Shown here: in pieces, positions 167-42,038 of the stretch
Layout of the letters: each line of letters opens with the position of its first letter
Numbering within the stretch: the first letter of the stretch is position 1
Position numbers and translations under genes: made by a program
The notes under the pieces: generated by a model
The model's database searches: none
What the model saw: the letters and a program-made list of their open reading frames with translations, nothing else
Told to the model about the DNA's origin: nothing
Source: Candidatus Levyibacteriota bacterium
Lineage (GTDB): Bacteria; Patescibacteriota; Microgenomatia; Levybacterales; UBA12049
Assembly: GCA_016432345.1 (NCBI GenBank)
Contig: CP066685.1
Coordinates: 368,236 to 432,235, forward strand
Length of the DNA stretch: 64,000 nucleotides
Direction: 5' to 3'

Positions 167-2407
167 ATGAAACAATTTGTTAATAAATTCTGGCCATTTT
201 TTTTTCTATTTTCTGTTTGGTTTGTTTTTGCAAATCCGTATTTTATAAAGGGAAAAGTACTGTATGCTTCAGATTACCAGGTTAATTTTTTTCCTCCTTG
301 GAGCCATTATCAAAAATTCGCTGGGCCGGTTAAAAATAACGCCATGCCAGATGTACATGGACAGATATACCCCTGGAAAAAATTTACCATAGATACCTTT
401 AAGCAACGTCAAATTCCTTTTTGGAACCCGTATAATTTTTCAGGTAATCCTCATTTAGCAAATTATCAATCCGCAGTTCTTTCCCCATTTAACATTTTAT
501 TTTTTATTTTCCCTTTTATTGATGCATGGAGTATTAGCATTTTACTGCAGCCACTTTTAGCAGGACTCTTTATGTATTTTTTTGTCCGACAGCTTATGGT
601 AAGTAAAGTTGGATCGTTAGTAAGCGCTGTTAGTTTTATGTTTTGTGGATTTATTGTTGTATGGATGGCATATGGGACACTTGCGTACGCAATTTTGTAT
701 TTGCCGCTTGCTTTATATGCTATAGAAAAATATTTGCAAACAAAAAAACTGCTTTTTCTTTTTCTTCTTGCAACAACAATACCGTTGTCGTTTTTCTCCG
801 GTCATTTTCAAATAAGCCTATATTTCTTTTTGTCAATTGTTCTTTATATCTTTTTCAAAGGAGTTATCGTGAGAAAACTATACGCTATACGCTATACGCT
901 ATACGCTGTTTTTGTTGGTTTGGTTCTTTCGCTTCCTCAACTTTTACCAGCGCTTGAACTTTACAAGCAAGCAATTCGTAGCGAGCTTTTTTTGCTTAGC
1001 GAAGTTATTCCATTTCAGTACCTAATAACAGGTATAGCTCCAGACTTTTTTGGTAATCCGGTAACTCGTAATGATTGGTTTGGGCATTATGCGGAGTGGG
1101 CATCGTTTATAGGGATATGGCCATTTTTATTTGCAATTTATACTGTGGTAAGAGTAGAAAATAAAAAGAAGTTTTTCTTTGTATTTCTTGGTTTATCAGC
1201 ATTGATCTTTGCAGTGAATAGTGCGCTTTCTCCTGTTATTATTTCCCTTAAAATTCCAGTTTTATCAACAAGTGCTTTTTCTCGAATTATTGTTCTTTTT
1301 AGCTTCTCTTTTGCAGTCCTTTCAGGATTTGGATTTGATGCTCTTTTAAAAGATATAGAAAAAAAAGAAAGGAAAAAAATTATCTCACTTTTGTCAGTAA
1401 CAGCGGTTTTTATGATTATTGTGTGGGTAATAATACTTTTTAGTAAATTATATCCATATGAATGGTTGATTGTAGCTAAAAGGAATTTTATTCTTCCTAC
1501 GATGTTATTTATCGGAGGGTCATTTTTACTTTTTGTATCGATATTCATCAGATCTAAAGTATTTTTACTACTTACTGTTTGTTATTTACTATTTGCTGCT
1601 TCGTTTGATAGTTTACGTTTTGCCCAAAAATGGATGCCATTTGGAAACCGTGAATTTGTTTTTCCCGACGTTCCAATTATTGAAGGAATTAGAAAAAATA
1701 TTGGCTATGGGAGAATCTATGGCAATATCGGCGCAGAGCTTACTACCTATTATGGTTTTCCCTCAATTGAAGGATACGACCCATTATATATTGGAAGATA
1801 CGGTGAATTTATTCGGAGTGCAGACACAGGGGAGTTTCAAAAAGGGGAGCGGTCTGTAGTAAAACTTTCCAGAGGCGGAAAATATACTAATAGAGTGCTT
1901 GATGTTTTAGGGGTTTCGCTTATTTTTAATCCAATCCCGGATACAAACCAAGATTGGGCGTATCCTGTGTGGAAAGATCAAGCGCGAAATATTATTATCT
2001 ATAAAGATGATAAATTTGAGCTTTATAAAAATACCCAAAGTATGTCTCGAGTAAGCCTTTTTTATAATGTTGAAGTGATTAAAAACGATAGAGAAATTAT
2101 AAAAAGATTTTATAGCGATAATTTTGATTTTAAACAAACCTTGCTTCTTGAAGAAAATATAGGGCAGTTTAAGCAAGGCTCAGGTAGCGCGCGCATTTTG
2201 TTTTATACGCCAAATAAAATAGATATAGAAACAACATCAAGTGCTCCTGCAATTCTTTTCTTGTCTGACAATTTCTACCCAGGATGGATAGCGAAAGTGA
2301 ATAAGAAAGAAACAAAAATTTTTAGAGCTGATTATACATTTCGAGCAGTTGTTGTCCCATCTGGAAGATCAACTGTAGAATTTATATATGAAAATTGGAA
2401 TTTTTGA
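167..2407 (+). CDS. YfhO-family polytopic membrane glycosyltransferase (GT-C type), paralog A1
   Basis: 746-aa ORF with a multi-helix hydrophobic body. Motifs FWNPYNFSGNPHLANYQSAVLSPFNILFF, IAPDFFGNP, IEGYDPLY and the C-terminal FLSDNFYPGWIAKVNKKETKIFRADYTFRAVVVP match what I recognise as the YfhO family. Paralogs at 3458 and 18246. Confidence 0.75.
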   Translation: MKQFVNKFWPFFFLFSVWFVFANPYFIKGKVLYASDYQVNFFPPWSHYQKFAGPVKNNAMPDVHGQIYPWKKFTIDTFKQRQIPFWNPYNFSGNPHLANYQSAVLSPFNILFFIFPFIDAWSISILLQPLLAGLFMYFFVRQLMVSKVGSLVSAVSFMFCGFIVVWMAYGTLAYAILYLPLALYAIEKYLQTKKLLFLFLLATTIPLSFFSGHFQISLYFFLSIVLYIFFKGVIVRKLYAIRYTLYAVFVGLVLSLPQLLPALELYKQAIRSELFLLSEVIPFQYLITGIAPDFFGNPVTRNDWFGHYAEWASFIGIWPFLFAIYTVVRVENKKKFFFVFLGLSALIFAVNSALSPVIISLKIPVLSTSAFSRIIVLFSFSFAVLSGFGFDALLKDIEKKERKKIISLLSVTAVFMIIVWVIILFSKLYPYEWLIVAKRNFILPTMLFIGGSFLLFVSIFIRSKVFLLLTVCYLLFAASFDSLRFAQKWMPFGNREFVFPDVPIIEGIRKNIGYGRIYGNIGAELTTYYGFPSIEGYDPLYIGRYGEFIRSADTGEFQKGERSVVKLSRGGKYTNRVLDVLGVSLIFNPIPDTNQDWAYPVWKDQARNIIIYKDDKFELYKNTQSMSRVSLFYNVEVIKNDREIIKRFYSDNFDFKQTLLLEENIGQFKQGSGSARILFYTPNKIDIETTSSAPAILFLSDNFYPGWIAKVNKKETKIFRADYTFRAVVVPSGRSTVEFIYENWNF
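878..907 (+). repeat. Perfect heptanucleotide tandem repeat (CTATACG)x4 + CT inside the YfhO-type CDS
   Basis: Read directly: ctatacg ctatacg ctatacg ctatacg ct. It encodes LYAIRYTLYA. The unit length is not divisible by 3. Confidence 0.95.
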
Positions 2408-3458
2408 TCCATATTTAGATACATTGGGCGGCGGAGAAAAGTATATGCTTGTTCTTGCGCAAGTATTATCGGAAAAACACGATGTGTGTATTTTTTGGGA
2501 TAAAAAAAAAGAAGACGAAATAAAAGCCGGAGCAATGCAGCGCTTTGGATTAAATCTAAATACAATTAATTTCCTAGATAATATTTTTTCAATTAAAACC
2601 CCGTTTCTTAAAAGGCTTTGGGAATTACAAAAATATGACGTTATTGTGTATCTAAGTGATGGAAGTATTCCATTCTCACTTAAAAAAAATTTAATTATCC
2701 ATTTTCAGTTTCCTGTTGAGCGGGTAAAGCCATCTTTGTTAGGTAGAGTAAAATTTTTAAGTGTAAAGCAAGTTATTTGTAATTCTAAATTTACAAAGTC
2801 ATATATTGATAAAAAATTTTATATAGATAGTAAGATTTTATATCCTCCGGTCGATATTATGAAAAATACCACATACAAAAAAGAAAATATTATTCTGCAT
2901 GTTGGGAGGTTTAGTTTAGATACTAAAGGCAACAACTTTAAAAAACAGGATTTTATGATTGATGTGTTTAAGAAAATTGCAACAAAAATAACAGATTGGC
3001 GATTTATTCTTATTATTAGCGTTAAGAAGGAAGACAAAGAAAAAATAAAAAGTTTAAGAGAGCGGGCAAAGGGTTTTCCGATCGAAATTATCGAGAATCC
3101 ATCAAACGAAAAACTTTGGCAGATGTATCAAAAAGCAAAAATTTATTGGCATGCTTCTGGTTTTGGAGAAAACTTAGAAAAAAATCCAGAGAAAGCAGAA
3201 CATTTTGGCATAGCAACTGCCGAGGCAATGGGCGCTGGCGCGGTGCCGGTTGTTATAAATGCCGGAGGCCAGCCAGAAATAGTAATGAATGGGAAGAATG
3301 GATTTCTCTGGGATACAGAAGAAGAATTTATTACCAGAACAAAACAGATTATTTCAAATAATACCCTTTGGCAAGAATTTTCTAAAGAGGGACAACAGGC
3401 GGTTATAAAATTTAATAAAGAACGGTTTTGTGAAGAAATAAAAGGAATTGTCGAATAA
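2388..3458 (+). CDS. Glycosyltransferase family 4 (GT-B fold)
   Basis: 356 aa. The N-terminus is MKIGIFDPYLDTLGGGEKY and the C-terminal signature is EHFGIATAEAMGAGAVPVV (E-x7-E). It overlaps the upstream gene end by 20 nt. Confidence 0.85.
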   Translation: MKIGIFDPYLDTLGGGEKYMLVLAQVLSEKHDVCIFWDKKKEDEIKAGAMQRFGLNLNTINFLDNIFSIKTPFLKRLWELQKYDVIVYLSDGSIPFSLKKNLIIHFQFPVERVKPSLLGRVKFLSVKQVICNSKFTKSYIDKKFYIDSKILYPPVDIMKNTTYKKENIILHVGRFSLDTKGNNFKKQDFMIDVFKKIATKITDWRFILIISVKKEDKEKIKSLRERAKGFPIEIIENPSNEKLWQMYQKAKIYWHASGFGENLEKNPEKAEHFGIATAEAMGAGAVPVVINAGGQPEIVMNGKNGFLWDTEEEFITRTKQIISNNTLWQEFSKEGQQAVIKFNKERFCEEIKGIVE

Positions 3459-5683
3459 TGAAAGTAAAGAAGTTCATGCCAATTATTTTTTTAACAGTGT
3501 TTGTTGTGATTTTTTTTAAGGCTTTTTTTCTGCAAAATAAATTACCAATTCCTGCAGATACTATTATTGGACTCTACCATCCTTTCCGCGACCTTTATGC
3601 TAAGCAGTATCCTCGCGGCATTCCTTTTAAAAATTTTTTAATTACCGATCCAGTTAGGCAGCAATATCCCTGGCGGCAGCTTGCCATATCTTTAGAAAAA
3701 AAAATTCAGCTTCCGCTCTGGAATCCTTATAATGCAGCAGGAGCGCCGCTTTTGGCAAATTTCCAAACTGCGGCGTGGTATCCATTTAATATCTTATTTT
3801 TTATTTTCCCATTTTCTTTTGCTTGGTCGGTTCTTGTTGTATTACAGCCGTTGCTTGGGGGAGTATTTTTGTATTTTTACCTTCGGCAGTTATTTATTAA
3901 TAAATGGGGTAGTATACTTGGGGCAATTGCGTTTTCTTTTTCGGGTTTTAGTATTGCATGGCTTGAGTGGAATACGATAGGACATGCAATGTTATGGTTG
4001 CCTTTATTACTTTTATCTATAGATAAAATAGTATTGCGTAATAAACCGCTTATTTGGTCTGTGGTTTTTCTTTTTTCACTTTGCTCATCTTTTTTTGCTG
4101 GACATCTGCAGACATTTTTTTACCTTTTTTTGATTACGCTTACGTATTTTATTGTTCGTTGGATACAAAACAGGAGAGATAAAAAAATAATTTCTTTATT
4201 CATTATTCTTTATTCATTATTCTTTATTGTCACAGCAATACAATGGATTCCCACTCTGCAATTTGTTGGGGAGAGCGCGCGTAGCATTGACCAAGCAGAT
4301 TGGCAAAAAGAAGGATGGTTTATCCCATGGCAACATCTTTTACAATTTGTGGCTCCAGATTTTTTTGGAAATCCTACGACGCTAAATTACTGGGGGGTGT
4401 GGAATTACGCGGAGTTTATTGGCTACGTTGGAATTTTTCCTCTAATTATGGCCTTGTATGCCCTTTTTTTTCGCCGCGACAAAAAAACACTTTTTTTTGG
4501 TACATTTCTTTTTTTATCTTTAATCTTTTCATTGCCAACCTTTTTTGCCAAAATTCCATATTTATTTAATATCCCCTTTTTGTCAACCGCCCAGCCAACC
4601 AGATTGTTATTTATTACAGATTTTTCTTTAGCAGTACTTTGCGCATTAGGATTTGATTACTTTCTTCGTCATAAAAAAGGAATATTGTCTGCAATAAGTT
4701 TTATTGGCATTGTTTTTGTCGGAGCTTGGCTTTTTGCTTCAACTCAAAGTCTTGCCGTGGCAAAGCAAAACCTATTTTTGCCGTCATTTATCTTTGTTAG
4801 CGCGTCATCTTTACTTATTTTTCTTTGGAAATTATCAAAAATAAATCAACGCATCATTATAATGATATATATCATTATAGTTGGTATAACAGTTTTTGAT
4901 TTACTAAGATTCGGTCAAAAGTTTACTCCTATTACTAATAAAGAATATCTCTTTTCACAATCATCAGCTATTTCTTTTTTACAGCAACAGAAAGGATATT
5001 TTAGGATTATGACAACAGATGATCGTATATTGCCACCAAATTTCTCCACTATTTATAGATTACAAAGCATAGATGGATATGATCCTTTGTATCTACTGCG
5101 TTATGGAGAACTTATTGCCGCATCAGAACGAGGAAAACCCGATATTTCTCCACCTTTTGGTTTCAATCGAATCATTACGCCACACGTTTACAACTCAAAA
5201 ATTATTGATCTTCTTGGAGTAAAATATATTTTGAGTCTTTCAGATATTAAATCGCCAAAACTCGTAAAAGTTTTTCAGGAGGGGCAAACCAGAATATACG
5301 AGAATACCAGCGCATTACCCCGAACGTTTTTTGTGTCTAAGATTCATCAGGGATTTGTAAAGGAAGATCTAATAAAGTTTTTATTTAATGACAGTGTTAA
5401 TTTTCGTGATGAAGCTATTTTAGAGGGAGAAGGTGGATTTCCGATGAGTAAAGAGGTAGAAAAAAATAAAGCAGAAATAATACAATATACAGAAAATAGT
5501 ATTAGTATTAAAACCGAAAATTTTGGACAGTCCTTTCTTGTTTTGACAGATATGTATTATCCTGCTTGGCACGCATATATTGATGGTAAAGAAACAAAAA
5601 TATATAGAACAAATTATACTTTTAGAGGAGTATTTGTACCAAATGGTAAGCACATTATAGAGTTTAATATTGGTTTATTATGA
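3458..5683 (+). CDS. YfhO-family polytopic membrane glycosyltransferase, paralog A2
   Basis: 741 aa. Motifs LWNPYNAAGAPLLANFQTAAWYPFNILFF, VAPDFFGNP, IDGYDPLY and the C-terminal LTDMYYPAWHAYIDGKETKIYRTNYTFRGVFVP. TAATG stop/start overlap with the upstream GT4. Confidence 0.75.
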   Translation: MKVKKFMPIIFLTVFVVIFFKAFFLQNKLPIPADTIIGLYHPFRDLYAKQYPRGIPFKNFLITDPVRQQYPWRQLAISLEKKIQLPLWNPYNAAGAPLLANFQTAAWYPFNILFFIFPFSFAWSVLVVLQPLLGGVFLYFYLRQLFINKWGSILGAIAFSFSGFSIAWLEWNTIGHAMLWLPLLLLSIDKIVLRNKPLIWSVVFLFSLCSSFFAGHLQTFFYLFLITLTYFIVRWIQNRRDKKIISLFIILYSLFFIVTAIQWIPTLQFVGESARSIDQADWQKEGWFIPWQHLLQFVAPDFFGNPTTLNYWGVWNYAEFIGYVGIFPLIMALYALFFRRDKKTLFFGTFLFLSLIFSLPTFFAKIPYLFNIPFLSTAQPTRLLFITDFSLAVLCALGFDYFLRHKKGILSAISFIGIVFVGAWLFASTQSLAVAKQNLFLPSFIFVSASSLLIFLWKLSKINQRIIIMIYIIIVGITVFDLLRFGQKFTPITNKEYLFSQSSAISFLQQQKGYFRIMTTDDRILPPNFSTIYRLQSIDGYDPLYLLRYGELIAASERGKPDISPPFGFNRIITPHVYNSKIIDLLGVKYILSLSDIKSPKLVKVFQEGQTRIYENTSALPRTFFVSKIHQGFVKEDLIKFLFNDSVNFRDEAILEGEGGFPMSKEVEKNKAEIIQYTENSISIKTENFGQSFLVLTDMYYPAWHAYIDGKETKIYRTNYTFRGVFVPNGKHIIEFNIGLL
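4192..4228 (+). repeat. 14-nt tandem repeat (TTCTTTATTCATTA) x2.6 inside YfhO-type paralog A2
   Basis: Read directly: ttctttattcatta ttctttattcatta ttctttatt. It encodes SLFIILYSLFFI. The unit is 2x7 nt and is not divisible by 3. It lies at the position homologous to the CTATACG tract of paralog A1. Confidence 0.9.
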
Positions 5684-6581: not shown

Positions 6582-7292
6582 ATGAAGTTATCAATTATAA
6601 TTCCTGTTTTTAACGAAGAAAAAACAATAACGCAGGTGTTGGAGAAAGTTGTTTTATTAAAACTTCCTGGTGTAGAAAAAGAGATTATTGTTGTTGATGA
6701 CGGATCTACAGATAGTTCAAAGTTTAAAATTCAAAATTTAAAGTTTATGGAAATAAAGTTTTTTTCTCACGAAAAAAATCAGGGGAAAGGCGCGGCGGTG
6801 AAGACAGGAATAAAAAATGCCACAGGAGATTACATTATAATTCAAGATGCAGATTTAGAATACAATCCTAAAGATATACAAAAGCTAATGGAACCAATTT
6901 TAAATGGAAAAGCAAAAGTTGTTTATGGAACAAGGTTAAAACGATTGCCAAATTTTTCAAAAGATGAAAAAAAATTAAGATTTTTTGTTCATTATCTTGG
7001 CAATAAATTTTTAAGTTTATTGACAAGTATACTGTATAGGCAGTGGATTACAGACATGGAGACAGGTTATAAACTTATACCAAGGGGTGTCTTACAAAAA
7101 ATCACACTTCATGCTAGAAGTTTTGATTTTGAGCCAGAAATTACCGCCAAAATTCTAAAAAACCATATAAAAATTCTTGAAATTCCAATTTCTACAAATC
7201 CAAGAGGATATGACCAAGGTAAAAAACTTAATACGGTAAAGGATGGTATTTTTGCTTTTATGACTCTGCTTAAATATAGGTTTTTTGAATAA
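6582..7292 (+). CDS. GT2, polyprenyl-phosphate sugar synthase-like (DPM1/GtrB/CsbB/ArnC type)
   Basis: 236 aa. Motifs LSIIIPVFNEEKTI, VVDDGSTDSS, GKGAAVKTGIKNATGDYIIIQDADLEYNP. The small size and motif set are typical of Pren-P-hexose synthases. It sits directly upstream of a GT-C gene. Confidence 0.7.
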   Translation: MKLSIIIPVFNEEKTITQVLEKVVLLKLPGVEKEIIVVDDGSTDSSKFKIQNLKFMEIKFFSHEKNQGKGAAVKTGIKNATGDYIIIQDADLEYNPKDIQKLMEPILNGKAKVVYGTRLKRLPNFSKDEKKLRFFVHYLGNKFLSLLTSILYRQWITDMETGYKLIPRGVLQKITLHARSFDFEPEITAKILKNHIKILEIPISTNPRGYDQGKKLNTVKDGIFAFMTLLKYRFFE

Positions 7293-18241: not shown

Positions 18242-18245
18242 GCTT

Positions 18246-20603
18246 ATGAAGAATAATATCTGGTTTATTGTTATTTTTTTTGTTATTGCTACAGGCATTA
18301 TCTTTCGCAGTTATTTTATCTCCGCTCAAGTGCCGTTTCCTGCGAATTTGCTAGTGCAGTTTTATCAACCGTGGGCATCTTATCCAAAGGCTGATTATAT
18401 TATTGGGCCAACTCAAAAACCACTTGGATTTGATAGCTTACGGATTTTTTATCCTACTCGAAGAATAGTTGTTGACCAATTGTCGCATGCTATAATTCCG
18501 CTTTGGAATCCTTATAGTTTTTCCGGAAATGTTTTGCATGCCACCTATCAATCTGCGGTTTTTTTCCCGCTTAGCTTTTTATTTTTTATTCTTCCCCCAA
18601 TTGATGCGTGGTCTGTTATTGTGATGCTTTCACCGATACTAACAGGAGTTTTTACCTATCTATTTTTGCAGGAATTATCTCTTGGTAAAAAGGCTAGTTT
18701 TTTTGGGGCAATCACTTACGCTTTTTGCGGAATTATGATTGTTTGGTGGGAGGAAATGTTTATGGCAGTCTATGCAATGCTTGTTTTACCTCTTGTTTGT
18801 TATTCAATTCATAGATTGTACAGAAATACAAAGCGTTTAGATTTTATAATTCTTTTTGGAGCATTGAGCAGTTCTATTTTTGCGGGTTGGTTTCAAGCAA
18901 CATTATATGTTTTTGTTTGCGGATTGTTATGGGCAATTTTTCTTTATTTTTTCTATTTTAGAAATAAAAGGAGTGCCAGACTTATTGCAATCGCATTCTT
19001 CTTATCAATTTTATTTTCTGCGGTACAACTTATTCCTGCTTTAGAAGTATATCTACATTCTTCGCGTCAATATCTAGATACTAAAGAGATATTTAACAAT
19101 TTTCTCTCACCAACATCGCAATTAATAACATTTATTGCTCCAGACTTTTTTGGTAATCCTGGAGCTTACAATTATTTTGGTAAAGGTTTTTATCACGAAA
19201 AAACGCTTTGGATTGGCATTTCGGCATTATTATTTGTGCTCTACGAATTACTTTCTCGCAAAAAAACAAAGATCGTTAGTTTTTTTCTGCTTTTGGGAGC
19301 GGCCACGTTATCGCTTGGTTTTAATCTTCCTACAACGTGGTTTTTTCTTTATACCTTGCACCCGCCATTTATTTCTGAAACAACACCGGGTAGAATCTTT
19401 TTCCTTTCCTCGTTTTGCTTTGCTGTTGCTGCTGCTTATGGCATGCAGCGGTATTTAAAAAAAGCAAGTTTTTTCCCAATGTTGTTTTCCGTAATTTGTA
19501 TAGGTATATTATTTATTTTCTCTTATGTTTTTTTATTTTCCTCATTAAAGGATAGATCTTACAGTATCGCATTGCATAATATGATTTTGCCTACAATTAT
19601 TTTTGTCTTAGCGGCAGCGGTAGTATTTGTTGGATTTTACAAAAGACTTCGCAGTGCCGCATGGATAGGTATTGTTATTATTTCACTTATCGGAATTTTT
19701 TATTTTGCCAATAAATATCTTTATTTTTCACAGAGGAGGTTTGTATTTCCTCAAAGCCCAGTTTTTTACAAATTGCAAGAAGTAGCAGGAATAGATCGTT
19801 TTTGGAGTTTTGGAAATGGTAGAATATTTAGCAATTTCTCAAACATTTATGGTTTGTATTCGGTTGAGGGATACGATTCTTTAAATATTGCTCGGTATAA
19901 TGAGTTGCTTTTTTCTTCTCACACAAAAGGTAGATTTATCAAATTTGTGCCACGAAATGATGCAACTTTGTATCCAGCAAACACCTGGAAAGATATTTAT
20001 GGCGATAATTACAGGAAGCGTTTACTTTCGCTTTTGGGCGTAAAGTATATAGCCTCTCTTCACGCGACTGATTCAGCTTCTCTATCAAACAAAACATTCC
20101 AAAGAATTTGGACAGATGGCGTGTATGATATCTCCTCTTACGAGGATGCTATTCCTCGATATTTTCTTGCAAACGAATATATTGTTGAAAAAGATAACCA
20201 AAAAATTTTAAGTTTGATATATGATAATAATTTTGATATGCTAAAAACCCTTATTTTAGAAGAAGAACCAGACTCATTTGTGGGGAATAAAAAAAACTTA
20301 GGTAAAGTAACATTGTTGTCGTATACGCCAAACAAAATTTCCTTCCAAGTAAATACAATTTTTGATGCACTGTTGTTTCTTTCTGATAATTATTATCCAG
20401 GATGGAAGTCATTTATAGATAACAAAGAAAGAAAAATATATCGGGCGGATTATAGTTTTCGATCAGTTGTTATTCCTGCTGGAACACATACTGTAACTTT
20501 TGCTTTTCAACCAAGATCTTTTTATGCAGGAGTTATTTTAACTTTAGCTGGTTTTATATTATTTTTACTTTTGCTTGTTAAAAAAGTTTGGAGAATGATA
20601 TAA
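18246..20603 (+). CDS. YfhO-family polytopic membrane glycosyltransferase, paralog A3
   Basis: The track ORF starts at 18195, inside the upstream gene. The in-frame ATG at 18246 (MKNNIWFIV) follows the upstream stop. Motifs LWNPYSFSGNVLHATYQSAVFFPLSFLFF, IAPDFFGNP, VEGYDSL and the C-terminal LSDNYYPGWKSFIDNKERKIYRADYSFRSVVIP. Confidence 0.75.
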   Translation: MKNNIWFIVIFFVIATGIIFRSYFISAQVPFPANLLVQFYQPWASYPKADYIIGPTQKPLGFDSLRIFYPTRRIVVDQLSHAIIPLWNPYSFSGNVLHATYQSAVFFPLSFLFFILPPIDAWSVIVMLSPILTGVFTYLFLQELSLGKKASFFGAITYAFCGIMIVWWEEMFMAVYAMLVLPLVCYSIHRLYRNTKRLDFIILFGALSSSIFAGWFQATLYVFVCGLLWAIFLYFFYFRNKRSARLIAIAFFLSILFSAVQLIPALEVYLHSSRQYLDTKEIFNNFLSPTSQLITFIAPDFFGNPGAYNYFGKGFYHEKTLWIGISALLFVLYELLSRKKTKIVSFFLLLGAATLSLGFNLPTTWFFLYTLHPPFISETTPGRIFFLSSFCFAVAAAYGMQRYLKKASFFPMLFSVICIGILFIFSYVFLFSSLKDRSYSIALHNMILPTIIFVLAAAVVFVGFYKRLRSAAWIGIVIISLIGIFYFANKYLYFSQRRFVFPQSPVFYKLQEVAGIDRFWSFGNGRIFSNFSNIYGLYSVEGYDSLNIARYNELLFSSHTKGRFIKFVPRNDATLYPANTWKDIYGDNYRKRLLSLLGVKYIASLHATDSASLSNKTFQRIWTDGVYDISSYEDAIPRYFLANEYIVEKDNQKILSLIYDNNFDMLKTLILEEEPDSFVGNKKNLGKVTLLSYTPNKISFQVNTIFDALLFLSDNYYPGWKSFIDNKERKIYRADYSFRSVVIPAGTHTVTFAFQPRSFYAGVILTLAGFILFLLLLVKKVWRMI

Positions 20604-24263: not shown

Positions 24264-24306
24264 ACTCTGTTTATATTATACGCTGTTTTTTTTGTATAAT
24301 AGAGGA
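24264..24306. promoter_or_regulatory. 43-bp divergent intergenic region with back-to-back -10 elements
   Basis: On the + strand, an extended -10 TGTATAAT at 24293-24300 lies exactly 6 nt before the GTG at 24307. On the - strand, TATAAT (+ coordinates 24275-24280) lies 11 nt before the ATG at 24263. A T8 tract (24286-24293) lies between them. The call is based on sequence pattern only. Confidence 0.3.
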
Positions 24307-25959
24307 GTGAGGTATTTTCTATTAGTTTGCATAATCATTTTAGCCATATTTCTTCGTTTTTTTCAGCTTGGACAAAATCCGTCATCACTCACCTGGGACG
24401 AAGTTGCATGGGGTTATAATGCCTATACTCTTGGTATAGACGGAAGAGACGAGTTTGGCCGTTTTTTACCGCTTGATTACCTTGAATCTTTTGGTGATTT
24501 TAAGCCGCCTCTTTATGCTTACCTTGTGATAATTCCTGTCAAAATATTCGGTCTTAATGAGTTTGCAGTACGTTTTCCATCTGCGTTTTTTGGCGTTTTA
24601 ACTGTATTTGCAACATATTTTTTAACTAAAGAGTTATTTAATAAATCACCTTATTCATTAAAAATTAGAAATTTGAAATTAGAAATTTCAGAAGTAGCAG
24701 CGCTGCTTTTGGCGGTTTCGCCCTGGCATGTCAATCTTTCTCGGGCGGCTTTTGAGGCAAATATTTCCACATTTTTTATTGTAGTTGGGGTTTTATTTTT
24801 CCTTTTATGGAGAAACAAAAATTATGGTTATGCATTGCCAACTTCGATAGTTTCATTTGTCCTTTCTCTTTATGTGTTTAATACTGCGCGTGTAGTTTCA
24901 CCATTGTTATTTCTTGTTTTGGCCATTGTATCATTGAAACAGTTTTGGAATCGCAAAATACAGGTAGCTATTGCAGTTATTGTTGGGGGTATAATTCTTT
25001 TTCCTCTTTTAAAATTTCTTTTTACACCTCAAGCAAGCCTTCGTTTTCAAGAAGTAAACATTTTTTCCGATATTGGGATAGTTCAGAGAGCAAATACCTA
25101 TATAGAAAATGATGGCAATACCACAATTTCAAAAATTATTCATAATCGCCGATGGGGTTATACAATTGAATTTTTACGTCATTATTTTGATCATTTTTCC
25201 GCTCGTTTCCTTTTTCTTCGAGGAGATGGAAATCCAAAATTTTCCACCCAAGATGTTGGAAGTATGTATTTATGGGACCTACCATTTTTTATTATTGGAG
25301 TACTTTTCCTTTTTCGCTATCGCCCTGGGCATTGGTGGTTAGTGCCGGTGTGGTTGCTGATAGGCATTGTTCCTGCGGCAACAGCAAGAGAAACACCACA
25401 TGCATTACGTATAGAAACGACTCTGCCAACATTTCAGATATTTGTTGCTTTTGGCATTGTTATTTTTTATCAGTGGATTTTTTCGATTAAAAATAGATTA
25501 AAAAGGAGAACAGTGATCAATGTCAGTATAGCGCTTCTCTTTTTACAAATTTTATACTATCTTCATGGATATTACATACATTATCCAAGAGAATATTCAG
25601 GCCAGTGGCAATATGGTTACAAAGAGGCAATAGCATACATACAAAATGTTGAAAAAAACTATGATGCGATTTATTTCACCGATAGTCTTGGAAGACCGCA
25701 TATATACTATGCATTTTATGCAAAAATTTATCCATCATTGTATAGAAAAGATGCAGTAGTTTGGAGAGAAATGCCTTATGGTTTTGTGCATGTAGATAAA
25801 ATAGGAAAAGTATATTTTATGAGAGATTTAATTCCAAAAGATACAAAAAAGAGAAATCTCTATATTGATGATCCAAGAAATGTTCCGTCAGACGCAAAAA
25901 TACTAAAAAATTTTAAGCTGCTTAACGGCGAAGACAGTTTAATTGCTTATACTAAATAG
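24307..25959 (+). CDS. PMT_2/GT39-type GT-C glycosyltransferase, paralog B3
   Basis: The track ORF (24082) extends 225 nt antisense into the neighbouring gene. The only plausible in-frame start after that gene is GTG 24307 (VRYFLLVCIIILAIFLRFFQLG), which gives an N-terminus the same length as the paralogs. Motifs TWDEVAWGYNAYTLGIDGRDEFGRFLPLDYLESFGDFKPPLY, VRFPSAFFGVLTV, VSPWHVNLSR and ETPHALR. Confidence 0.7.
   Translation: MRYFLLVCIIILAIFLRFFQLGQNPSSLTWDEVAWGYNAYTLGIDGRDEFGRFLPLDYLESFGDFKPPLYAYLVIIPVKIFGLNEFAVRFPSAFFGVLTVFATYFLTKELFNKSPYSLKIRNLKLEISEVAALLLAVSPWHVNLSRAAFEANISTFFIVVGVLFFLLWRNKNYGYALPTSIVSFVLSLYVFNTARVVSPLLFLVLAIVSLKQFWNRKIQVAIAVIVGGIILFPLLKFLFTPQASLRFQEVNIFSDIGIVQRANTYIENDGNTTISKIIHNRRWGYTIEFLRHYFDHFSARFLFLRGDGNPKFSTQDVGSMYLWDLPFFIIGVLFLFRYRPGHWWLVPVWLLIGIVPAATARETPHALRIETTLPTFQIFVAFGIVIFYQWIFSIKNRLKRRTVINVSIALLFLQILYYLHGYYIHYPREYSGQWQYGYKEAIAYIQNVEKNYDAIYFTDSLGRPHIYYAFYAKIYPSLYRKDAVVWREMPYGFVHVDKIGKVYFMRDLIPKDTKKRNLYIDDPRNVPSDAKILKNFKLLNGEDSLIAYTK
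24662..24689 (+). repeat. Imperfect heptamer array (AAATTAG AAATTTG AAATTAG AAATTTC), equivalent to a 14-mer x2, in GT39 paralog B3
   Basis: Read directly. It encodes KIRNLKLEI. It lies at the same loop as the perfect AAATTGG array of paralog B4. Confidence 0.85.
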
Positions 25960-25962
25960 CTC

Positions 25963-27648
25963 ATGTTTAAAAAAATTATTATATTTATTTTTATTGTTTT
26001 TATCGCAAGTGTTTTGCGTTTGTGGCAATTAGGAAATATTCCTCCCTCTCCAGATTGGGATGAAGCAGCGCTTGCTTATAGTGCGTATTCGATTATGCAG
26101 ACTGGAAAGGACGAGTATGGTATTTCTTTTCCTATTATTCTTCGATCGTTTGATGATTACAAACCGGCACTTTACTCATATATAGCAATTCCCTTTATTA
26201 AGATTTTTGGTTTGAATGTTATTGCAATTCGTCTTCCATCTGCTGTTTTTGGCATTACAACTATTATCGCAGTATATTTTTTAATGAAAGAATTGTTTAA
26301 GAATACCACCTTAAAATTGGAAATTGGAAATTGGAAATTGGAAATTCCAGAAGTAGCTATGCTGCTTCTGGCTATTTCCCCATGGCATTTGCAATTTTCC
26401 CGTATCGCTTTTGAATCAAATCTTGGCTTGTCTCTTAATATTTTTGCCATATTTTTATTTGTTAAAGGATTAAAAAAACCAATGCTGCTGCCATTTTCAG
26501 CTTTTTTTCTAGGATTAAGTCTTTATGCTTATCAGAGTGAAAAAGTATTTGTTCCGCTGCTTTGTCTAATTCTTGTTTTGGTGTATAGAAAAACATTTTT
26601 CAGATTGCCCAAAAAATACATAATATTTGCATTTTTTATTGGTATAGCGCTTACAGTTCCTATTGCTTATTACACTTTTACTCAAAAAGCGGCATTAGCC
26701 AGAGCGCAGGGGGTGAGTATTTTTACAGAAAGTACGCCGTTTGTCAAACAATATACAAAAAGAATTGTTATAGACAAAAAAAATCATGACATTTTTGGTT
26801 TTTTTGTTGATAACAGAAGAATAGCTTATGTAAAGGCTGTAATTGACGGATATTTGTCTCATTATAATTTATATTGGCTATTTCTTTCCGGGGATATTTC
26901 CCGTCATCATGCGCCAGAAATGGGTCTTTTGTATCTTTGGGAACTGCCGTTTTTGTTTATAGGAATTTATCAAATGGTATTTGGTTTTTTTCCAAAAAAC
27001 ACTAAATATTTAATTTTTTTGTGGTTTTTTGCCGCTCCAATTCCTGCCTCTGTAACAACTGGCGTGCCGCACGCTGTAAGAACACTCAATTTTTTGCCTA
27101 CTTTTCAGATTTTTATTGCGATAGGACTTATTGCCGCTTTTGCAAAAATATCAAGTATTAAATATCAAGTATTAAATATAATAGGTTTGCGATATACACT
27201 TATTTCCTGTTTTTTGTTAATGTTCACTTTTAATTTTTTGTATTATTTAAATCAATATTTTGTGCAGCAAAACAATTTTTATTCCGAAAGTTGGCAATAT
27301 GGTTATAAAGAAGCAATAGACGATGTAAAAAAGATAGAAAATAGATATCAAAAAGTTATTGTTTCAAATCAGCCTCATTTAGACCAGTCATATATGTTTT
27401 TTCTTTTTTATCTTCAGTATCCACCAAATCTTTACCAGGAGGAAGCAAAGAAAAATAATTCTGGTGGTTTTGCCGAAACGCACCAGTTTGGCAAGTATAT
27501 TTTCCGTCCGATTGTTTGGGAAAACGAAAAAAAAGACGGTAAAACTCTATATGTTGGAAGGCAGGAAGACTTTCACGATTCAGCACATGTTATAAAAAAA
27601 ATTTTCTTTCTTAATGGAAAGGCGGCAATTTCTATAGTTGATGGATAA
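25963..27648 (+). CDS. PMT_2/GT39-type GT-C glycosyltransferase, paralog B4
   Basis: 561 aa. Motifs LWQLGNIPPSPDWDEAALAYSAYSIMQTGKDEYGISFPIILRSFDDYKPALY, IRLPSAVFGITT, ISPWHLQFSR, GVPHAVRT and WQYGYKEAI. Confidence 0.75.
   Translation: MFKKIIIFIFIVFIASVLRLWQLGNIPPSPDWDEAALAYSAYSIMQTGKDEYGISFPIILRSFDDYKPALYSYIAIPFIKIFGLNVIAIRLPSAVFGITTIIAVYFLMKELFKNTTLKLEIGNWKLEIPEVAMLLLAISPWHLQFSRIAFESNLGLSLNIFAIFLFVKGLKKPMLLPFSAFFLGLSLYAYQSEKVFVPLLCLILVLVYRKTFFRLPKKYIIFAFFIGIALTVPIAYYTFTQKAALARAQGVSIFTESTPFVKQYTKRIVIDKKNHDIFGFFVDNRRIAYVKAVIDGYLSHYNLYWLFLSGDISRHHAPEMGLLYLWELPFLFIGIYQMVFGFFPKNTKYLIFLWFFAAPIPASVTTGVPHAVRTLNFLPTFQIFIAIGLIAAFAKISSIKYQVLNIIGLRYTLISCFLLMFTFNFLYYLNQYFVQQNNFYSESWQYGYKEAIDDVKKIENRYQKVIVSNQPHLDQSYMFFLFYLQYPPNLYQEEAKKNNSGGFAETHQFGKYIFRPIVWENEKKDGKTLYVGRQEDFHDSAHVIKKIFFLNGKAAISIVDG
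26314..26346 (+). repeat. Perfect heptanucleotide tandem repeat (AAATTGG)x4 + AAATT inside GT39 paralog B4
   Basis: Read directly: aaattgg aaattgg aaattgg aaattgg aaatt. It encodes KLEIGNWKLEI. The unit is not divisible by 3. Confidence 0.95.
27146..27179 (+). repeat. 14-nt tandem repeat (AAATATCAAGTATT) x2.4 inside GT39 paralog B4
   Basis: Read directly: aaatatcaagtatt aaatatcaagtatt aaatat. It encodes KISSIKYQVLNI. The unit is not divisible by 3. Confidence 0.9.
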
Positions 27649-40409: not shown

Positions 40410-42038
40410 ATGAAAGGATTTCTTTCTATTTTTTTAGTTTTGTTTTTTTCTTTTGTTGCTGCAAGATCTTTACTAGCTCCAGGATTGCCGCCAACACATG
40501 ATGGAGAATATCATATTATTAGATTTTACGAATTTGACAAGACTTTAAGAGCAGGAGATTTATACCCCCGCTGGGCGCAGGATTTAAATAATGGATATGG
40601 CGTTCCATTATTTAACTATGTCTACCCGTTACCAAATTATATTGCCTCTTTTTTTCATCTATTCGGAGTAAGTTTTATTGATGCATTTAAATTAAGCATG
40701 TTTTTTGCCGCAATAGTAGGTTCAATAGCAATGTATTTATGGGCAAAGATTTTTTGGGGAGAAGTGGGTGGTGTTGTCTCATCTGTTTTTTATACTTTTG
40801 CCCCATATCACTTTGTTGATATATATGTCAGGGGTTCTGTTGGTGAAGTATGGGCATTAGCGTTTTTCCCTGCATTTCTTTGGTCAGCAACAGTATTTAT
40901 AAAAGAAAGAAGACCAAGATTTGTCGTTTTGTCCGGGATTTTTCTCTCTCTAATTATATTTTCTCATAATATTTTAGCATTAATGTTTTTTCCCTTCGCT
41001 CTTTTTTATGTTCTCTTTTTAATTTTTTTTAGCAAAGAAAAACTATACGCTATACGCTATACGCTATACGCTATTTTTTTGGGTCTAGGTTTGTCTGCAA
41101 TTTTTTGGTTGCCCGCCATTTTTGAAGCAAATTATGTTAAAGGGTTACAAATATATGATATTGAAAATAATTTTCCAGAATTGTATCAACTATTTATTCC
41201 ATCGTGGGGGTCTGGTTTTTCAAATGATGATTTACCGAATCAAATGTCTCCTCAAATAGGAATTGCAAACATATTTTCTTTATTAGGGACAGTTATCGTA
41301 TTGATTATTCTTTTGAGGAGAAAACAAAAAAGTGTTTCATTACTAATTTTGTTTTTTCTTTTATGGTTTACTGTCGTATTTTTTTTACTGCTTCCTGCAT
41401 CTTTGCCAATTTGGTTGCATGTACCTTTGATGAATTATTTTCAATTTCCGTGGCGTCTGTTGAGTCTTGAGATTTTATTTTTGGCATTTCTAGCCGGGAG
41501 TATGATAATGATTTGGAAGAATAAGATCTTTCTGGCGCTGATGGTTATTTTTCCAATAGTGTTAGGTGTTGGCTATGCAAAGCCGCCATTCTATTTTAAT
41601 AGAGATGATATATATTATATTTCCAGATCAAATTTTATTGATGGAACAAACAGTCCAGGAGATTTATTTAATACGGTATGGTTTAATAAGGGTTTAAAAA
41701 AACAAAAAGAAAAAATTTTAGTAGGGCATGGTATGTTGACAGATGTCCAAATAAATCCTACAAAATATTTATTACGTGTTGAAGTAAATTCAGATTCTCA
41801 GGTAACAGTGAATACAGTATATTTTCCTGGATGGACGGCAATGATTAATAAAAAAGAAATAGATACAAAACCTGATAATAATGGTTTAATTACTTTTTTT
41901 GTCCCTGAAAGTACGAATTATATTGTGCTTTTTTTTAAAAATACTTTTGTTAGAATGATTGCAACAAGTATTTCTTTGGTATCTTTTTTTTCGATAATAC
42001 TGTATTTAGTATTATATTTTCGTTATGAAAAAAAATAA
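40410..42038 (+). CDS. HDGxxH..PRW-type (COG5617/'PTPS-related') polytopic membrane protein, paralog D3
   Basis: 542 aa. Motifs THDGEYHIIRFYEFDKTLRAGDLYPRWAQDLNNGYGVPLFNYVYPLPNY, QFPWRL and the C-terminal NTVYFPGWTAMINKKE...GLITFFVPE. Confidence 0.55.
   Translation: MKGFLSIFLVLFFSFVAARSLLAPGLPPTHDGEYHIIRFYEFDKTLRAGDLYPRWAQDLNNGYGVPLFNYVYPLPNYIASFFHLFGVSFIDAFKLSMFFAAIVGSIAMYLWAKIFWGEVGGVVSSVFYTFAPYHFVDIYVRGSVGEVWALAFFPAFLWSATVFIKERRPRFVVLSGIFLSLIIFSHNILALMFFPFALFYVLFLIFFSKEKLYAIRYTLYAIFLGLGLSAIFWLPAIFEANYVKGLQIYDIENNFPELYQLFIPSWGSGFSNDDLPNQMSPQIGIANIFSLLGTVIVLIILLRRKQKSVSLLILFFLLWFTVVFFLLLPASLPIWLHVPLMNYFQFPWRLLSLEILFLAFLAGSMIMIWKNKIFLALMVIFPIVLGVGYAKPPFYFNRDDIYYISRSNFIDGTNSPGDLFNTVWFNKGLKKQKEKILVGHGMLTDVQINPTKYLLRVEVNSDSQVTVNTVYFPGWTAMINKKEIDTKPDNNGLITFFVPESTNYIVLFFKNTFVRMIATSISLVSFFSIILYLVLYFRYEKK
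41043..41074 (+). repeat. Perfect heptanucleotide tandem repeat (CTATACG)x4 + CTAT inside paralog D3
   Basis: Read directly: ctatacg ctatacg ctatacg ctatacg ctat. It encodes LYAIRYTLYAI. The unit and copy number are identical to 878..907 in a different gene family. Confidence 0.95.

What the first reader, a model, noticed from the sequence alone, without database searches (positions are those of the whole stretch)
4192..4228. 14-nt repeat in YfhO paralog A2 at the position homologous to the CTATACG tract of A1
Seen in sequence: ttctttattcatta x2 + ttctttatt lies at about codon 245 of 741. It follows a basic patch (RRDKKII), just as the A1 tract follows REK. The sequence differs, but the unit class (14 = 2x7, non-triplet) and the location (before the IPTLQF helix) are the same. 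Paralog A3 (18246) has no repeat there.

Inference: this loop is a recurrent hotspot for non-triplet repeat formation.
Basis: partly seen in the sequence, partly recalled or inferred. Interest (0 to 1): 0.55.

Follow-up and report, generated by a model that had tools for sequence, protein, structure and literature searches.

The report
Seven-base coding repeat in a glycosyltransferase
A perfect 14-base (2 x 7) repeat that encodes the start of a membrane helix in a YfhO sugar-transferase of a Levybacteria genome is one case of a lineage-wide habit of keeping short 7-base repeats, always in frame, at fixed spots in cell-surface sugar genes; it looks like a frameshift on/off switch, but no switched-off copy has been seen.

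Summary
Window 4192-4228 is TTCTTTATTCATTA x2.64, perfect, and is the top TRF score in the window. It lies at codons 245-257 of an intact 741-aa YfhO (GT-C) gene of a Ca. Levyibacteriota MAG, and it aligns with the CTATACG tract of paralog A1. Paralog A3 has no repeat there.

The tract is not chance. With the protein held fixed, 2000 synonymous shuffles reach a lag run of at most 17, against 23 observed.

It is not an isolated oddity. The window's five long perfect tandem repeats all have period 7 or 14. In 1 Mb of orthologous loci, long perfect repeats are almost only of period 7, 14 or 21.

Across 81 orthologs, codon 246 is the strongest lag-7 position in the gene. Units differ between lineages but are homogenised within each, and helix length is constant. 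That is concerted evolution in a 7-nt register.

A +-14 nt change truncates the protein at 270-313 aa. However, 62 of 64 tracts, 32 of 32 metagenome alleles and all orthologs are in frame, and no copy-number difference was seen.

Best reading: a slippage-maintained coding microsatellite that acts as a low-rate reversible frameshift switch. Phase variation is unproven. Novelty: a new variant of a known kind.

The parts
4192..4228 (+). The tract: TTCTTTATTCATTA x2.64 (equivalently TTCTTTA/TTCATTA alternating, x5.3). It covers codons 245-257 of A2.
3458..5683 (+). A2, an intact 741-aa YfhO-family GT-C membrane glycosyltransferase gene. It is 100% identical to an NCBI Ca. Levyibacteriota MAG protein.
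4172..4186 (+). Basic patch RRDKK (codons 239-243). By the positive-inside rule it is a short, probably cytoplasmic, turn before the helix.
   Evidence: inference from the positive-inside rule
4181..4276 (+). Predicted long helix, residues 242-273. Its hydrophobic core is 244-262 and the tract encodes its N-terminal part.
4241..4264 (+). Conserved QWIPTLQF motif just after the tract. Q262 and W263 are invariant in 36 orthologs.
878..907 (+). Homologous tract of paralog A1 (gene 167-2407): CTATACG x4.3, encoding LYAIRYTLYA.
41043..41074 (+). The same CTATACG tract (x4.6) at the homologous helix of a PTPS_related GT-C gene (40410-42038). It shares an identical 34-nt string with A1.
26314..26346 (+). 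AAATTGG x4.7 in PMT_2 GT-C gene 25963-27648. It belongs to the same repeat class.
27146..27179 (+). AAATATCAAGTATT x2.4, a second tract in gene 25963-27648.
24657..24688 (+). Decayed copy (AAATTAG/AAATTTG) of the AAATTGG-type tract in paralog 24082-25959.
6714..6747 (+). Decayed heptamer tract just after DDGSTD in GT2 gene 6582-7292. Orthologs carry perfect tracts at this place.
18972..19028 (+). Homologous helix of paralog A3 (gene 18195-20603), without any 7/14 periodicity. It serves as a negative control.

Best explanation
The tract is a slippage-prone coding microsatellite in a 7-nt register (here two alternating heptamers, hence period 14). It encodes the first two thirds of a transmembrane helix of a YfhO-type GT-C glycosyltransferase.

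Shown:
- It sits at the strongest heptamer-periodic site of the whole gene family.
- Its units are homogenised within each lineage but differ between lineages, while the helix length never changes.
- Gain or loss of one 14-nt (or 7-nt) unit shifts the frame and truncates the enzyme right after the helix, at 270-313 aa instead of 741.

Inferred:
- Replication slippage repeatedly adds and removes units.
These ON -> OFF -> ON cycles are what keep the repeat perfect.
- The tract therefore behaves as a low-rate, reversible frameshift switch of one of many surface-glycan transferases. It works like the heptanucleotide switch of Neisseria pglE.

Whether switching is frequent enough to be adaptive phase variation is not shown.
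For: - Perfect repeat far beyond chance.
- In the window, every perfect tandem run with at least 14 lag matches has period 7 or 14.
- In 1.0 Mb of orthologous loci, such runs number 26 for period 7, 9 for period 14 and 6 for period 21. Periods 8, 16 and 27 have 1 each and all others 0. Units that are multiples of 3, which coding regions normally tolerate best, are absent except 21 (3 x 7) and the single period-27 run.
- Lag-7 periodicity over 81 orthologs peaks at codon 246 (0.484 against 0.287; lag-6 0.38, lag-8 0.31).
- Concerted evolution: within-genome unit identity is 0.491, above 0.453 for the same position between genomes and 0.403 for different positions. Control periods 5, 6, 8 and 9 show no such excess.
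- Sister lineage L118 is 70% identical in nucleotides, with third codon positions at 50%. It has TTCTTTCTTCATTA x2.2, the same unit with one substitution present in both copies. Its A1 ortholog has CTATCAT x4.9 where the window has CTATACG x4.3.
- L004 has TGTTATT x5.1, L038 TGCTATT and L069 CTATTTA x4.3 at the same site.
- In-silico +-7, +-14 and +-28 nt alleles give products of 270-313 aa.
- All 33 tracts that could be assigned lie in glycan-synthesis ORFs and none in 143 kb of other ORFs (about 5 expected).
- Where the protein tolerates length change (the loop at codon ~193), heptamer tracts do add blocks of 7-10 aa between species.
- A heptanucleotide repeat controls phase variation of the glycosyltransferase pglE (PMC7157529).
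Against: - No out-of-frame allele was seen. 62 of 64 period-7/14 tracts are in frame, and the other 2 are short stop/start overlaps. All 32 metagenome contigs found with a frame-blind pattern have a gap of 117 nt (one has 129).
- No copy-number difference was seen between any close relatives or between samples carrying the same strain.
- Copy number is low (2.6 x 14 nt, or 5.3 imperfect heptamers). Described heptanucleotide switches in H. influenzae have 8-38 units (PMC2651432).
- The tract lies in a length-constrained helix, so only one ON length exists.
- Nothing explains why only 7-nt units occur.
Confidence: 0.45

Rival explanations
1. Mutational by-product without a switch. A lineage-specific replication or repair bias creates and homogenises 7-nt repeats in tolerant segments. 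Purifying selection removes every frameshifted intermediate, and homogenisation proceeds through in-frame 21-nt steps or intra-tract conversion. The tract then has no regulatory role.
For: - All tracts are in frame and of nearly constant length.
- Copy numbers are low.
- Period-21 remnants and loop length classes differing by 7-10 aa (about 21-30 nt) are seen.
- Perfect period-7 tracts are bimodal in length, at 15-20 and 29-37 nt, which fits steps of three units.
- The tract region is more conserved at the nucleotide level than the gene: about 1 difference per unit against 70% identity overall.
Against: - A neutral slippage bias should also produce repeats with units that are multiples of 3, which coding regions tolerate best. 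Apart from period 21 and one period-27 run, none are seen.
- +-7 aa variants of the helix are never seen among about 110 sequences.
- The restriction to glycan genes fits selection better than a genome-wide bias, although only 143 kb of other ORFs were sampled.
Confidence: 0.33
2. Inter-paralog gene conversion. Tracts are copied between the many GT-C paralogs of one genome, so the perfect repeat is maintained by recombination with another locus carrying the same tract.
For: - A1 and the PTPS_related gene 40410-42038 share an identical 34-nt string, AAAA(CTATACG)4CT, although the genes are only distantly related.
- An independent assembly of the same strain breaks at 882 and at 4224. Under k = 31 logic this implies other sequences sharing 30 nt of each tract and then diverging.
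Against: - No second copy of the A2 unit exists in the 64-kb window.
- Conversion between paralogs does not by itself create a tandem repeat, nor the 7-nt exclusivity.
Confidence: 0.12
3. Protein-level selection for a 7-residue periodic helix (for example LFIILNS LFIILTS), or plain T-rich low complexity of membrane-helix codons, gives the appearance of a DNA repeat.
For: - Many orthologs have a 7-aa periodic peptide and period-21 DNA.
- The tract is 62% T.
Against: - A 7- or 14-nt period is out of register with codons, so selection on the peptide cannot produce it.
- With the peptide fixed, synonymous shuffles never reach the observed run (maximum 17 against 23 in 2000 trials).
- Tract peptides differ completely between sister lineages (LYAIRYT against LSSIIYH in A1) while tract geometry is kept.
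- Control periods show no excess.
Confidence: 0.05

Closest known systems
Intragenic heptanucleotide repeat of Neisseria pglE (protein-glycosylation glycosyltransferase), a slipped-strand phase-variation switch (PMC7157529)
   Same: A 7-nt unit lies inside the reading frame of a glycosyltransferase that decorates the cell surface. One unit more or less shifts the frame. It is one of several switchable glycan genes in a single genome.
   Different: pglE varies in copy number between isolates, and ON and OFF states are observed. Here no variation and no OFF allele was found. The tract is short, sits in a length-constrained membrane helix of a GT-C enzyme, and is conserved in position across species with only 50-70% protein identity.
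Simple-sequence contingency loci of Haemophilus influenzae, Campylobacter and Neisseria (tetranucleotide, poly-G and heptanucleotide tracts in LOS or capsule glycosyltransferases; PMC2651432, PMC6321876)
   Same: There is an excess of repeats whose unit is not a multiple of 3 in coding regions. They concentrate in surface-glycan genes, and one unit length is preferred per lineage.
   Different: Known loci have many more units (8-38 for H. influenzae heptamers). They are polymorphic between strains, and a sizeable share are OFF in any genome. Here tracts have 4-5 units, a fixed length and 0 OFF in about 100 sequences. The organism is an uncultured CPR bacterium, for which I found no report of such loci.
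Concerted evolution of short tandem arrays (coding microsatellites or minisatellites homogenised by slippage or unequal exchange)
   Same: Units within a genome are more alike than orthologous units between genomes. Substitutions spread to all copies.
   Different: Such coding arrays normally have units that are multiples of 3 and vary in length. Here the unit is 7 nt and array length is frozen, so each turnover step must pass through, or avoid, a frameshift.
YfhO of Bacillus and Listeria (GT-C enzyme for teichoic-acid glycosylation; PMC5836110)
   Same: The host gene matches Pfam YfhO above the gathering score, and its model resembles GT-C enzymes (ArnT, AftD, AftA).
   Different: No repeat tract or phase variation is described for YfhO in that paper or in the literature I could search. 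The substrate in Levybacteria is unknown.

Membership tests
SSR-mediated phase-variable (contingency) locus | Tandem repeat inside the ORF (or promoter) whose unit is not a multiple of 3 | tested here: met
   A 14-nt unit (7 + 7), perfect for 37 nt, at codons 245-257.
SSR-mediated phase-variable (contingency) locus | Gain or loss of one unit abolishes the full-length product | tested here: met
   In silico, +-7, +-14 and +-28 nt give 270-313 aa instead of 741.
SSR-mediated phase-variable (contingency) locus | Repeat number differs between strains or within a population | tested here: not met
   Logan contigs of the same strain are 100% identical where they cover the tract. 32 metagenome alleles and 81 orthologs all have the same segment length, apart from rare in-frame changes. 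Reads were not available, so minority alleles were not tested.
SSR-mediated phase-variable (contingency) locus | Both ON and OFF alleles occur in nature | tested here: not met
   0 real OFF among 64 tracts and 0 of 32 in a frame-blind scan.
SSR-mediated phase-variable (contingency) locus | Tract long enough to be hypermutable, with a measured switching rate | not testable with these tools
   The tract has 2.6 units of 14 nt, or 5.3 imperfect heptamers. Described heptamer switches have 8-38 units (PMC2651432). No rate can be measured in silico.
SSR-mediated phase-variable (contingency) locus | Over-representation of such repeats in surface-structure genes of the genome | tested here: met
   Only periods 7 and 14 (and 21) give long perfect repeats. 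33 tracts lie in glycan ORFs and 0 in 143 kb of other ORFs. The non-glycan sample is small.
YfhO family (Pfam PF09586), GT-C fold glycosyltransferase | Match to the family profile above the curated threshold | tested here: met
   114.5 bits against a cut-off of 28.5, E 6.6e-33. 2848 homologs have E <= 1e-20, and sources name them YfhO family.
YfhO family (Pfam PF09586), GT-C fold glycosyltransferase | GT-C architecture: multi-helix membrane domain plus a C-terminal soluble domain | tested here: met
   The AF2 model (pTM 0.72) has many helices followed by a beta-rich C-terminal domain. The best Foldseek PDB matches are ArnT, AftD and AftA, with probability 0.99-1.0 but low TM.
YfhO family (Pfam PF09586), GT-C fold glycosyltransferase | Glycosyl transfer from a lipid-linked donor to a cell-envelope polymer | not testable with these tools
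   No biochemical data. No solved structure is detectable by sequence.

The most novel reading that the evidence does not exclude
Levybacteria, and probably other Microgenomates, run a lineage-wide set of heptanucleotide coding repeats. These sit at conserved positions in dozens of GT-C, GT2 and GT4 surface-glycan genes. They would be either a genuine phase-variation repertoire (the first in the Candidate Phyla Radiation) or the product of an unknown 7-nt-specific slippage or templating mechanism that rewrites tracts without changing their length. The A2 tract would be one switch of that set.
Probability: 0.3. Interest if true: 0.8.

Novelty: new variant of a known kind. Interest (0 to 1): 0.6.

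Why it matters
CPR bacteria are tiny, uncultured episymbionts. Their surface glycans presumably mediate host attachment and phage recognition, yet nothing is known about how they vary their surface.

A conserved battery of frameshift-capable repeats in their glycosyltransferase genes would point to stochastic surface variation in this radiation, and it can be tested directly with existing read sets.

Independently of function, the repeats show several unusual properties. They use 7-nt units exclusively, keep a fixed array length and show concerted evolution across species. This is an odd mutational signature that may reveal a peculiarity of replication or repair in these reduced genomes.

The repeats also matter for annotation and assembly. 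An independent assembly of the same strain breaks at two of them.

Tried and rejected
- **Chance or low complexity.** Rejected by the lag-run spectrum and synonymous shuffles.
- **Assembly artefact.** Rejected. The same class of tract occurs in MAGs and contigs from many studies and assemblers, always in frame.
- **Insertion relative to orthologs.** Rejected. The peptide segment has the same length in nearly all orthologs.
- **Programmed ribosomal frameshift site.** AAATTTC fits X XXY YYZ, but most units (CTATACG, TGTTATT, TTCTTTA) do not, so this was rejected.
- **Sequence-specific protein or RNA binding array (for example GGA motifs).** Rejected, because units differ freely between lineages at the same site.
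- **Search for strain-level alleles.**
  - An exact look-up of A2 found nothing.
  - Neighbouring proteins did lead to same-strain Logan contigs, but none spans the tract.
  - One contig runs exactly from the A1 tract to the A2 tract. k-mer simulations show that the ends (882 and 4224) are not those expected for +-1-unit alleles, so this remains ambiguous.
- **Search with a 151-aa segment for truncated proteins.**
  - It gave a split YfhO gene (L125-L127), but that gene is broken in a T7 homopolymer 25 codons upstream, not at a heptamer tract.
  - It also gave a heavily fragmented region (L128, gene calls only) and an apparently unrelated locus (L129, no YfhO among its neighbours). Neither was examined further.
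- **Look-ups of ORF 25963-27648 and ORF 24082-25959.** Both found nothing, which is uninformative.
- **Literature.** Six full-text searches found no report of heptamer repeats or phase variation in Patescibacteria or Levybacteria, or in YfhO. PMC9426551 mentions Levybacteria and tandem repeats, but in unrelated contexts.
Full report
**1. What is at the coordinates**

Window 4192-4228 reads TTCTTTATTCATTA TTCTTTATTCATTA TTCTTTATT. Tandem Repeats Finder reports period 14, 2.6 copies, 100% matches and score 74, the highest score in the 64-kb window. It also reports a period-7 reading (TTCTTTA/TTCATTA, 5.3 copies, 86%).

The tract lies in the + strand ORF 3458-5683 (741 aa). This ORF matches Pfam YfhO (PF09586) at 114.5 bits. 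It is 100% identical to a protein that NCBI names 'YfhO family protein [Candidatus Levyibacteriota bacterium]', on a 762,565-bp contig.

The tract covers codons 245-257 (I-SLFIILYSLFF-I). It follows RRDKK directly and ends about 5 codons before the invariant QW of QWIPTLQF.

Residues 244-262 form one of the most hydrophobic 19-mers of the protein (Kyte-Doolittle 2.41). An AlphaFold2 model built on 36 orthologs (pTM 0.72) puts one long helix at 242-273, with pLDDT 90-95 over 241-260. The model's best PDB matches are the GT-C enzymes ArnT, AftD and AftA. The tract therefore encodes the start of a membrane helix, not a loop.

**2. It is more than chance**

The repeat gives 23 consecutive matches at lag 14. 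Over periods 1-30, the only perfect tandem runs with at least 14 lag matches in the window are five, and all have period 7 or 14:

| Position | Unit | Copies |
|---|---|---|
| 878 | CTATACG | x4.3 |
| 4192 | this tract | x2.6 |
| 26314 | AAATTGG | x4.7 |
| 27146 | AAATATCAAGTATT | x2.4 |
| 41043 | CTATACG | x4.6 |

Every other period peaks at 10-12. With the A2 protein held fixed and synonymous codons shuffled, the largest lag-7/14 run averages 7.8 and never exceeds 17 in 2000 trials.

**3. Positional homology**

A MAFFT alignment of the three YfhO paralogs (35% identity) places A1 KLYAIRYTLYAVF and A2 KKIISLFIILYSLF in the same columns, ahead of LPALE / IPTLQ. A3 has no periodicity at the homologous segment 18972-19028 (lag-7 run 2, lag-14 run 3). 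The A1 tract follows VRK, not REK.

**4. The wider picture**

The whole window is one glycan-synthesis locus. GT-C genes (YfhO, PMT_2, PTPS_related, GT87) with interspersed GT2 and GT4 genes fill the first 43 kb. GT4 genes, sugar-nucleotide enzymes and a polysaccharide-synthesis protein follow.

I fetched 80 orthologous loci from species-representative genomes, about 1.0 Mb in total, with 50-64% protein identity. Perfect tandem runs with at least 14 lag matches distribute as follows:

| Period | Runs |
|---|---|
| 7 | 26 |
| 14 | 9 |
| 21 | 6 |
| 8, 16, 27 | 1 each |
| all others | 0 |

All 33 assignable tracts lie in ORFs similar to the window's glycan genes. None lies in 143 kb of other ORFs, where about 5 would be expected. 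The tracts occupy fixed places:

- right after DDGSTD in GT2 enzymes;
- in the GT4 inter-domain linker;
- in a PMT_2 loop;
- in the YfhO loop at codon ~193;
- in the helix studied here.

Perfect period-7 tracts have a bimodal length distribution, at 15-20 nt and 29-37 nt. Other periods show only the short class.

**5. The site is the family's main heptamer hotspot**

I averaged lag-7 identity in 36-nt windows over 81 orthologs, in register with the protein alignment. The gene-wide maximum is at reference codon 246 (0.484 against a gene mean of 0.287; lag-6 0.38, lag-8 0.31). The second peak is at codon 193.

The DNA of this helix is visibly heptameric in many lineages, each with its own unit:

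- L004: TGTTATT x5.1
- L038: TGCTATT
- L069: CTATTTA x4.3
- L002, L018, L026, L060: TTAATAC
- L005-L012: TTATTCA/TAATTCT
- L028, L084, L096: perfect 14-nt repeats of 34 nt

L018 starts its tract with CTATACG TAATACT. A1 orthologs carry TAATACT/TTATACT. The A1 and A2 tracts therefore look like descendants of one old tract rather than independent inventions.

**6. Concerted evolution at constant length**

The peptide segment has the same length in nearly all of about 110 sequences. Heptamers within one genome are more alike (0.491) than heptamers at the same position in different genomes (0.453) or at different positions in different genomes (0.403). Control registers 5, 6, 8 and 9 show no excess.

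The two closest relatives are 70-71% identical in nucleotides, with third codon positions at 50%, which is saturated. Even so:

- L118 has TTCTTTCTTCATTA x2.2. This is the window's unit with one substitution present in both copies, giving two different amino-acid changes.
- L113 has an imperfect version of the same length.
- In the A1 ortholog of L118 the whole tract is CTATCAT x4.9, where the window has CTATACG x4.3. The copy number and position are about the same, but the peptide is entirely different: LSSIIYH against LYAIRYT.

So the repeat geometry is conserved, not the peptide. Substitutions spread through all copies. This requires repeated gain-and-loss or conversion events since the lineages split.

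Where length is free, in the loop at codon ~193, heptamer tracts do add blocks of 7-10 aa. The loop falls into length classes of 21-25, 28-32 and 39-42 aa.

**7. Does it switch?**

In silico, +-7, +-14 or +-28 nt gives products of 270-313 aa that lack the conserved QWIPTLQF region and everything after it. That is the anatomy of a slipped-strand switch. The evidence for actual switching, however, is negative or ambiguous.

- Of 64 period-7/14 tracts in the window and loci, 62 are in the frame that gives the longest product. The other 2 are short AAAATGA-type stop/start overlaps.
- I ran a frame-blind pattern over JGI metagenomes (HLQTFFY ... N{102,132} ... QWI). It found 32 contigs, all with a 117-nt gap except one with 129 nt. 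Only two of these 32 contigs (L084, L096) carry a long perfect tract at the site, so the test has little power for perfect tracts.
- Logan contigs from five runs (SRR12113419, 22, 25, 28, 31) are 100% identical to the window. None spans the A2 tract. One of them, L121, runs exactly from inside the A1 tract (882) to inside the A2 tract (4224).
  - A k = 31 de Bruijn simulation shows that a clonal genome already breaks at the A1 tract, because A1 and gene 40410-42038 share a 34-nt identical string.
  - +-1-unit alleles would end the contig at 878/885 and 4214/4221, not at 882/4224.
  - The observed ends imply other sequences that share 30 nt of each tract and diverge at 912 and 4194. These could be further paralogs or variant alleles. 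I cannot decide without reads.
- A split YfhO gene found in the same sample series is broken in a T7 homopolymer, not at a heptamer tract.

**8. Interpretation**

Shown: this is a non-random repeat in a 7-nt register, at a family-wide hotspot, evolving in concert at fixed length and always in frame.

Inferred: The tract would then be a low-rate reversible frameshift switch, working like the heptanucleotide repeat of Neisseria pglE (PMC7157529). I give this 0.45.

The main rival (0.33) is a mutational by-product that is homogenised through in-frame 21-nt steps or conversion, with no switching role. It is favoured by the total lack of OFF alleles and by the low copy number; H. influenzae heptamer switches have 8-38 units (PMC2651432). 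It is disfavoured by the absence of repeats with units that are multiples of 3 (other than 21 and one period-27 run) and by the restriction to glycan genes.

Inter-paralog conversion (0.12) is suggested by the A1 / 40410 identity. Peptide-level or low-complexity explanations (0.05) fail the shuffle and register controls.

Why only 7-nt units occur remains unexplained.

**9. Novelty**

Six full-text searches found no report of heptamer repeats or phase variation in Patescibacteria or Levybacteria, or in YfhO.

The kind of element, a repeat with a unit that is not a multiple of 3 inside a surface glycosyltransferase gene, is well known. The variant is new in five respects:

- 7-nt exclusivity;
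- 4-5 units;
- frozen length;
- cross-species positional conservation;
- occurrence in a CPR lineage.

Membership of the class of phase-variable loci is not established. Two defining features, copy-number polymorphism and OFF alleles, were tested and not met with the data available.

Noticed in passing
window 874-907 and 41039-41072: A1 (YfhO) and the PTPS_related GT-C gene 40410-42038 share an identical 34-nt string, AAAA(CTATACG)4CT. Both encode KLYAIRYTLYA at the homologous helix before the ..LPA.. motif, although the genes are only distant paralogs. This suggests gene conversion or tract transfer between paralogs.
   Followed up: partly
window 26314-26346 and 24657-24688: Tandem PMT_2 paralogs carry the same tract at the same place. 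It is perfect in one (AAATTGG x4.7) and decayed in the other (AAATTAG/AAATTTG). The L025 ortholog has ATTGGGA x4.3 there.
   Followed up: partly
window 27146-27179: A second perfect tract (AAATATCAAGTATT x2.4) lies in the same PMT_2 gene 25963-27648. One gene thus carries two frameshift-capable repeats.
   Followed up: no
window 6714-6747; L038 9444-9480, L005 6896-6929, L118 6694-6729: GT2 enzymes carry heptamer tracts immediately after the DDGSTD motif. The tract is decayed in the window but perfect in many orthologs (AATCTCA, AATTTCC, AAGCGCAAAGCTTA). The same unit sometimes appears in different species.
   Followed up: partly
A2 codons ~185-200 (window 4010-4057) and orthologous loci: A second YfhO hotspot lies in the loop after LLLSIDKI. 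Its length falls into classes of 21-25, 28-32 and 39-42 aa, and the extra blocks are heptamer tracts (for example L025 AAATTTC x4.6, L035 AATTTTC x3.9). The window's gene has the minimal loop without a tract.
   Followed up: yes
L121 = window 882-4224 (Logan SRR12113422): An independent assembly of the same strain yields a contig that begins 4 nt inside the A1 tract and ends 4 nt before the end of the A2 tract. The ends do not match those predicted for +-1-unit alleles. They imply other sequences sharing 30 nt of each tract.
   Followed up: partly
L125 2844-4303 (also L126, L127): Another organism in the same sample series has a YfhO gene split by a frameshift in a T7 run right after GHLQTFF and truncated at its C-terminus. 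It appears to be a pseudogene found in several samples.
   Followed up: yes
window + 84 loci (L001-L080, L084, L096, L113, L118), 1.1 Mb: Perfect period-7 tracts are bimodal in length, at 15-20 nt and 29-37 nt with almost nothing between. Period-14 tracts also cluster at 33-37 nt. No other period has a long class.
   Followed up: partly
window 1-64000: The entire window is a single, almost wholly + strand, glycan locus. It holds at least 14 GT-C membrane glycosyltransferase genes (three YfhO, eight with PMT_2 matches of which six reach the curated score, PTPS_related, GT87). GT2 and GT4 genes, a polysaccharide-synthesis protein and sugar-nucleotide enzymes complete it.
   Followed up: partly
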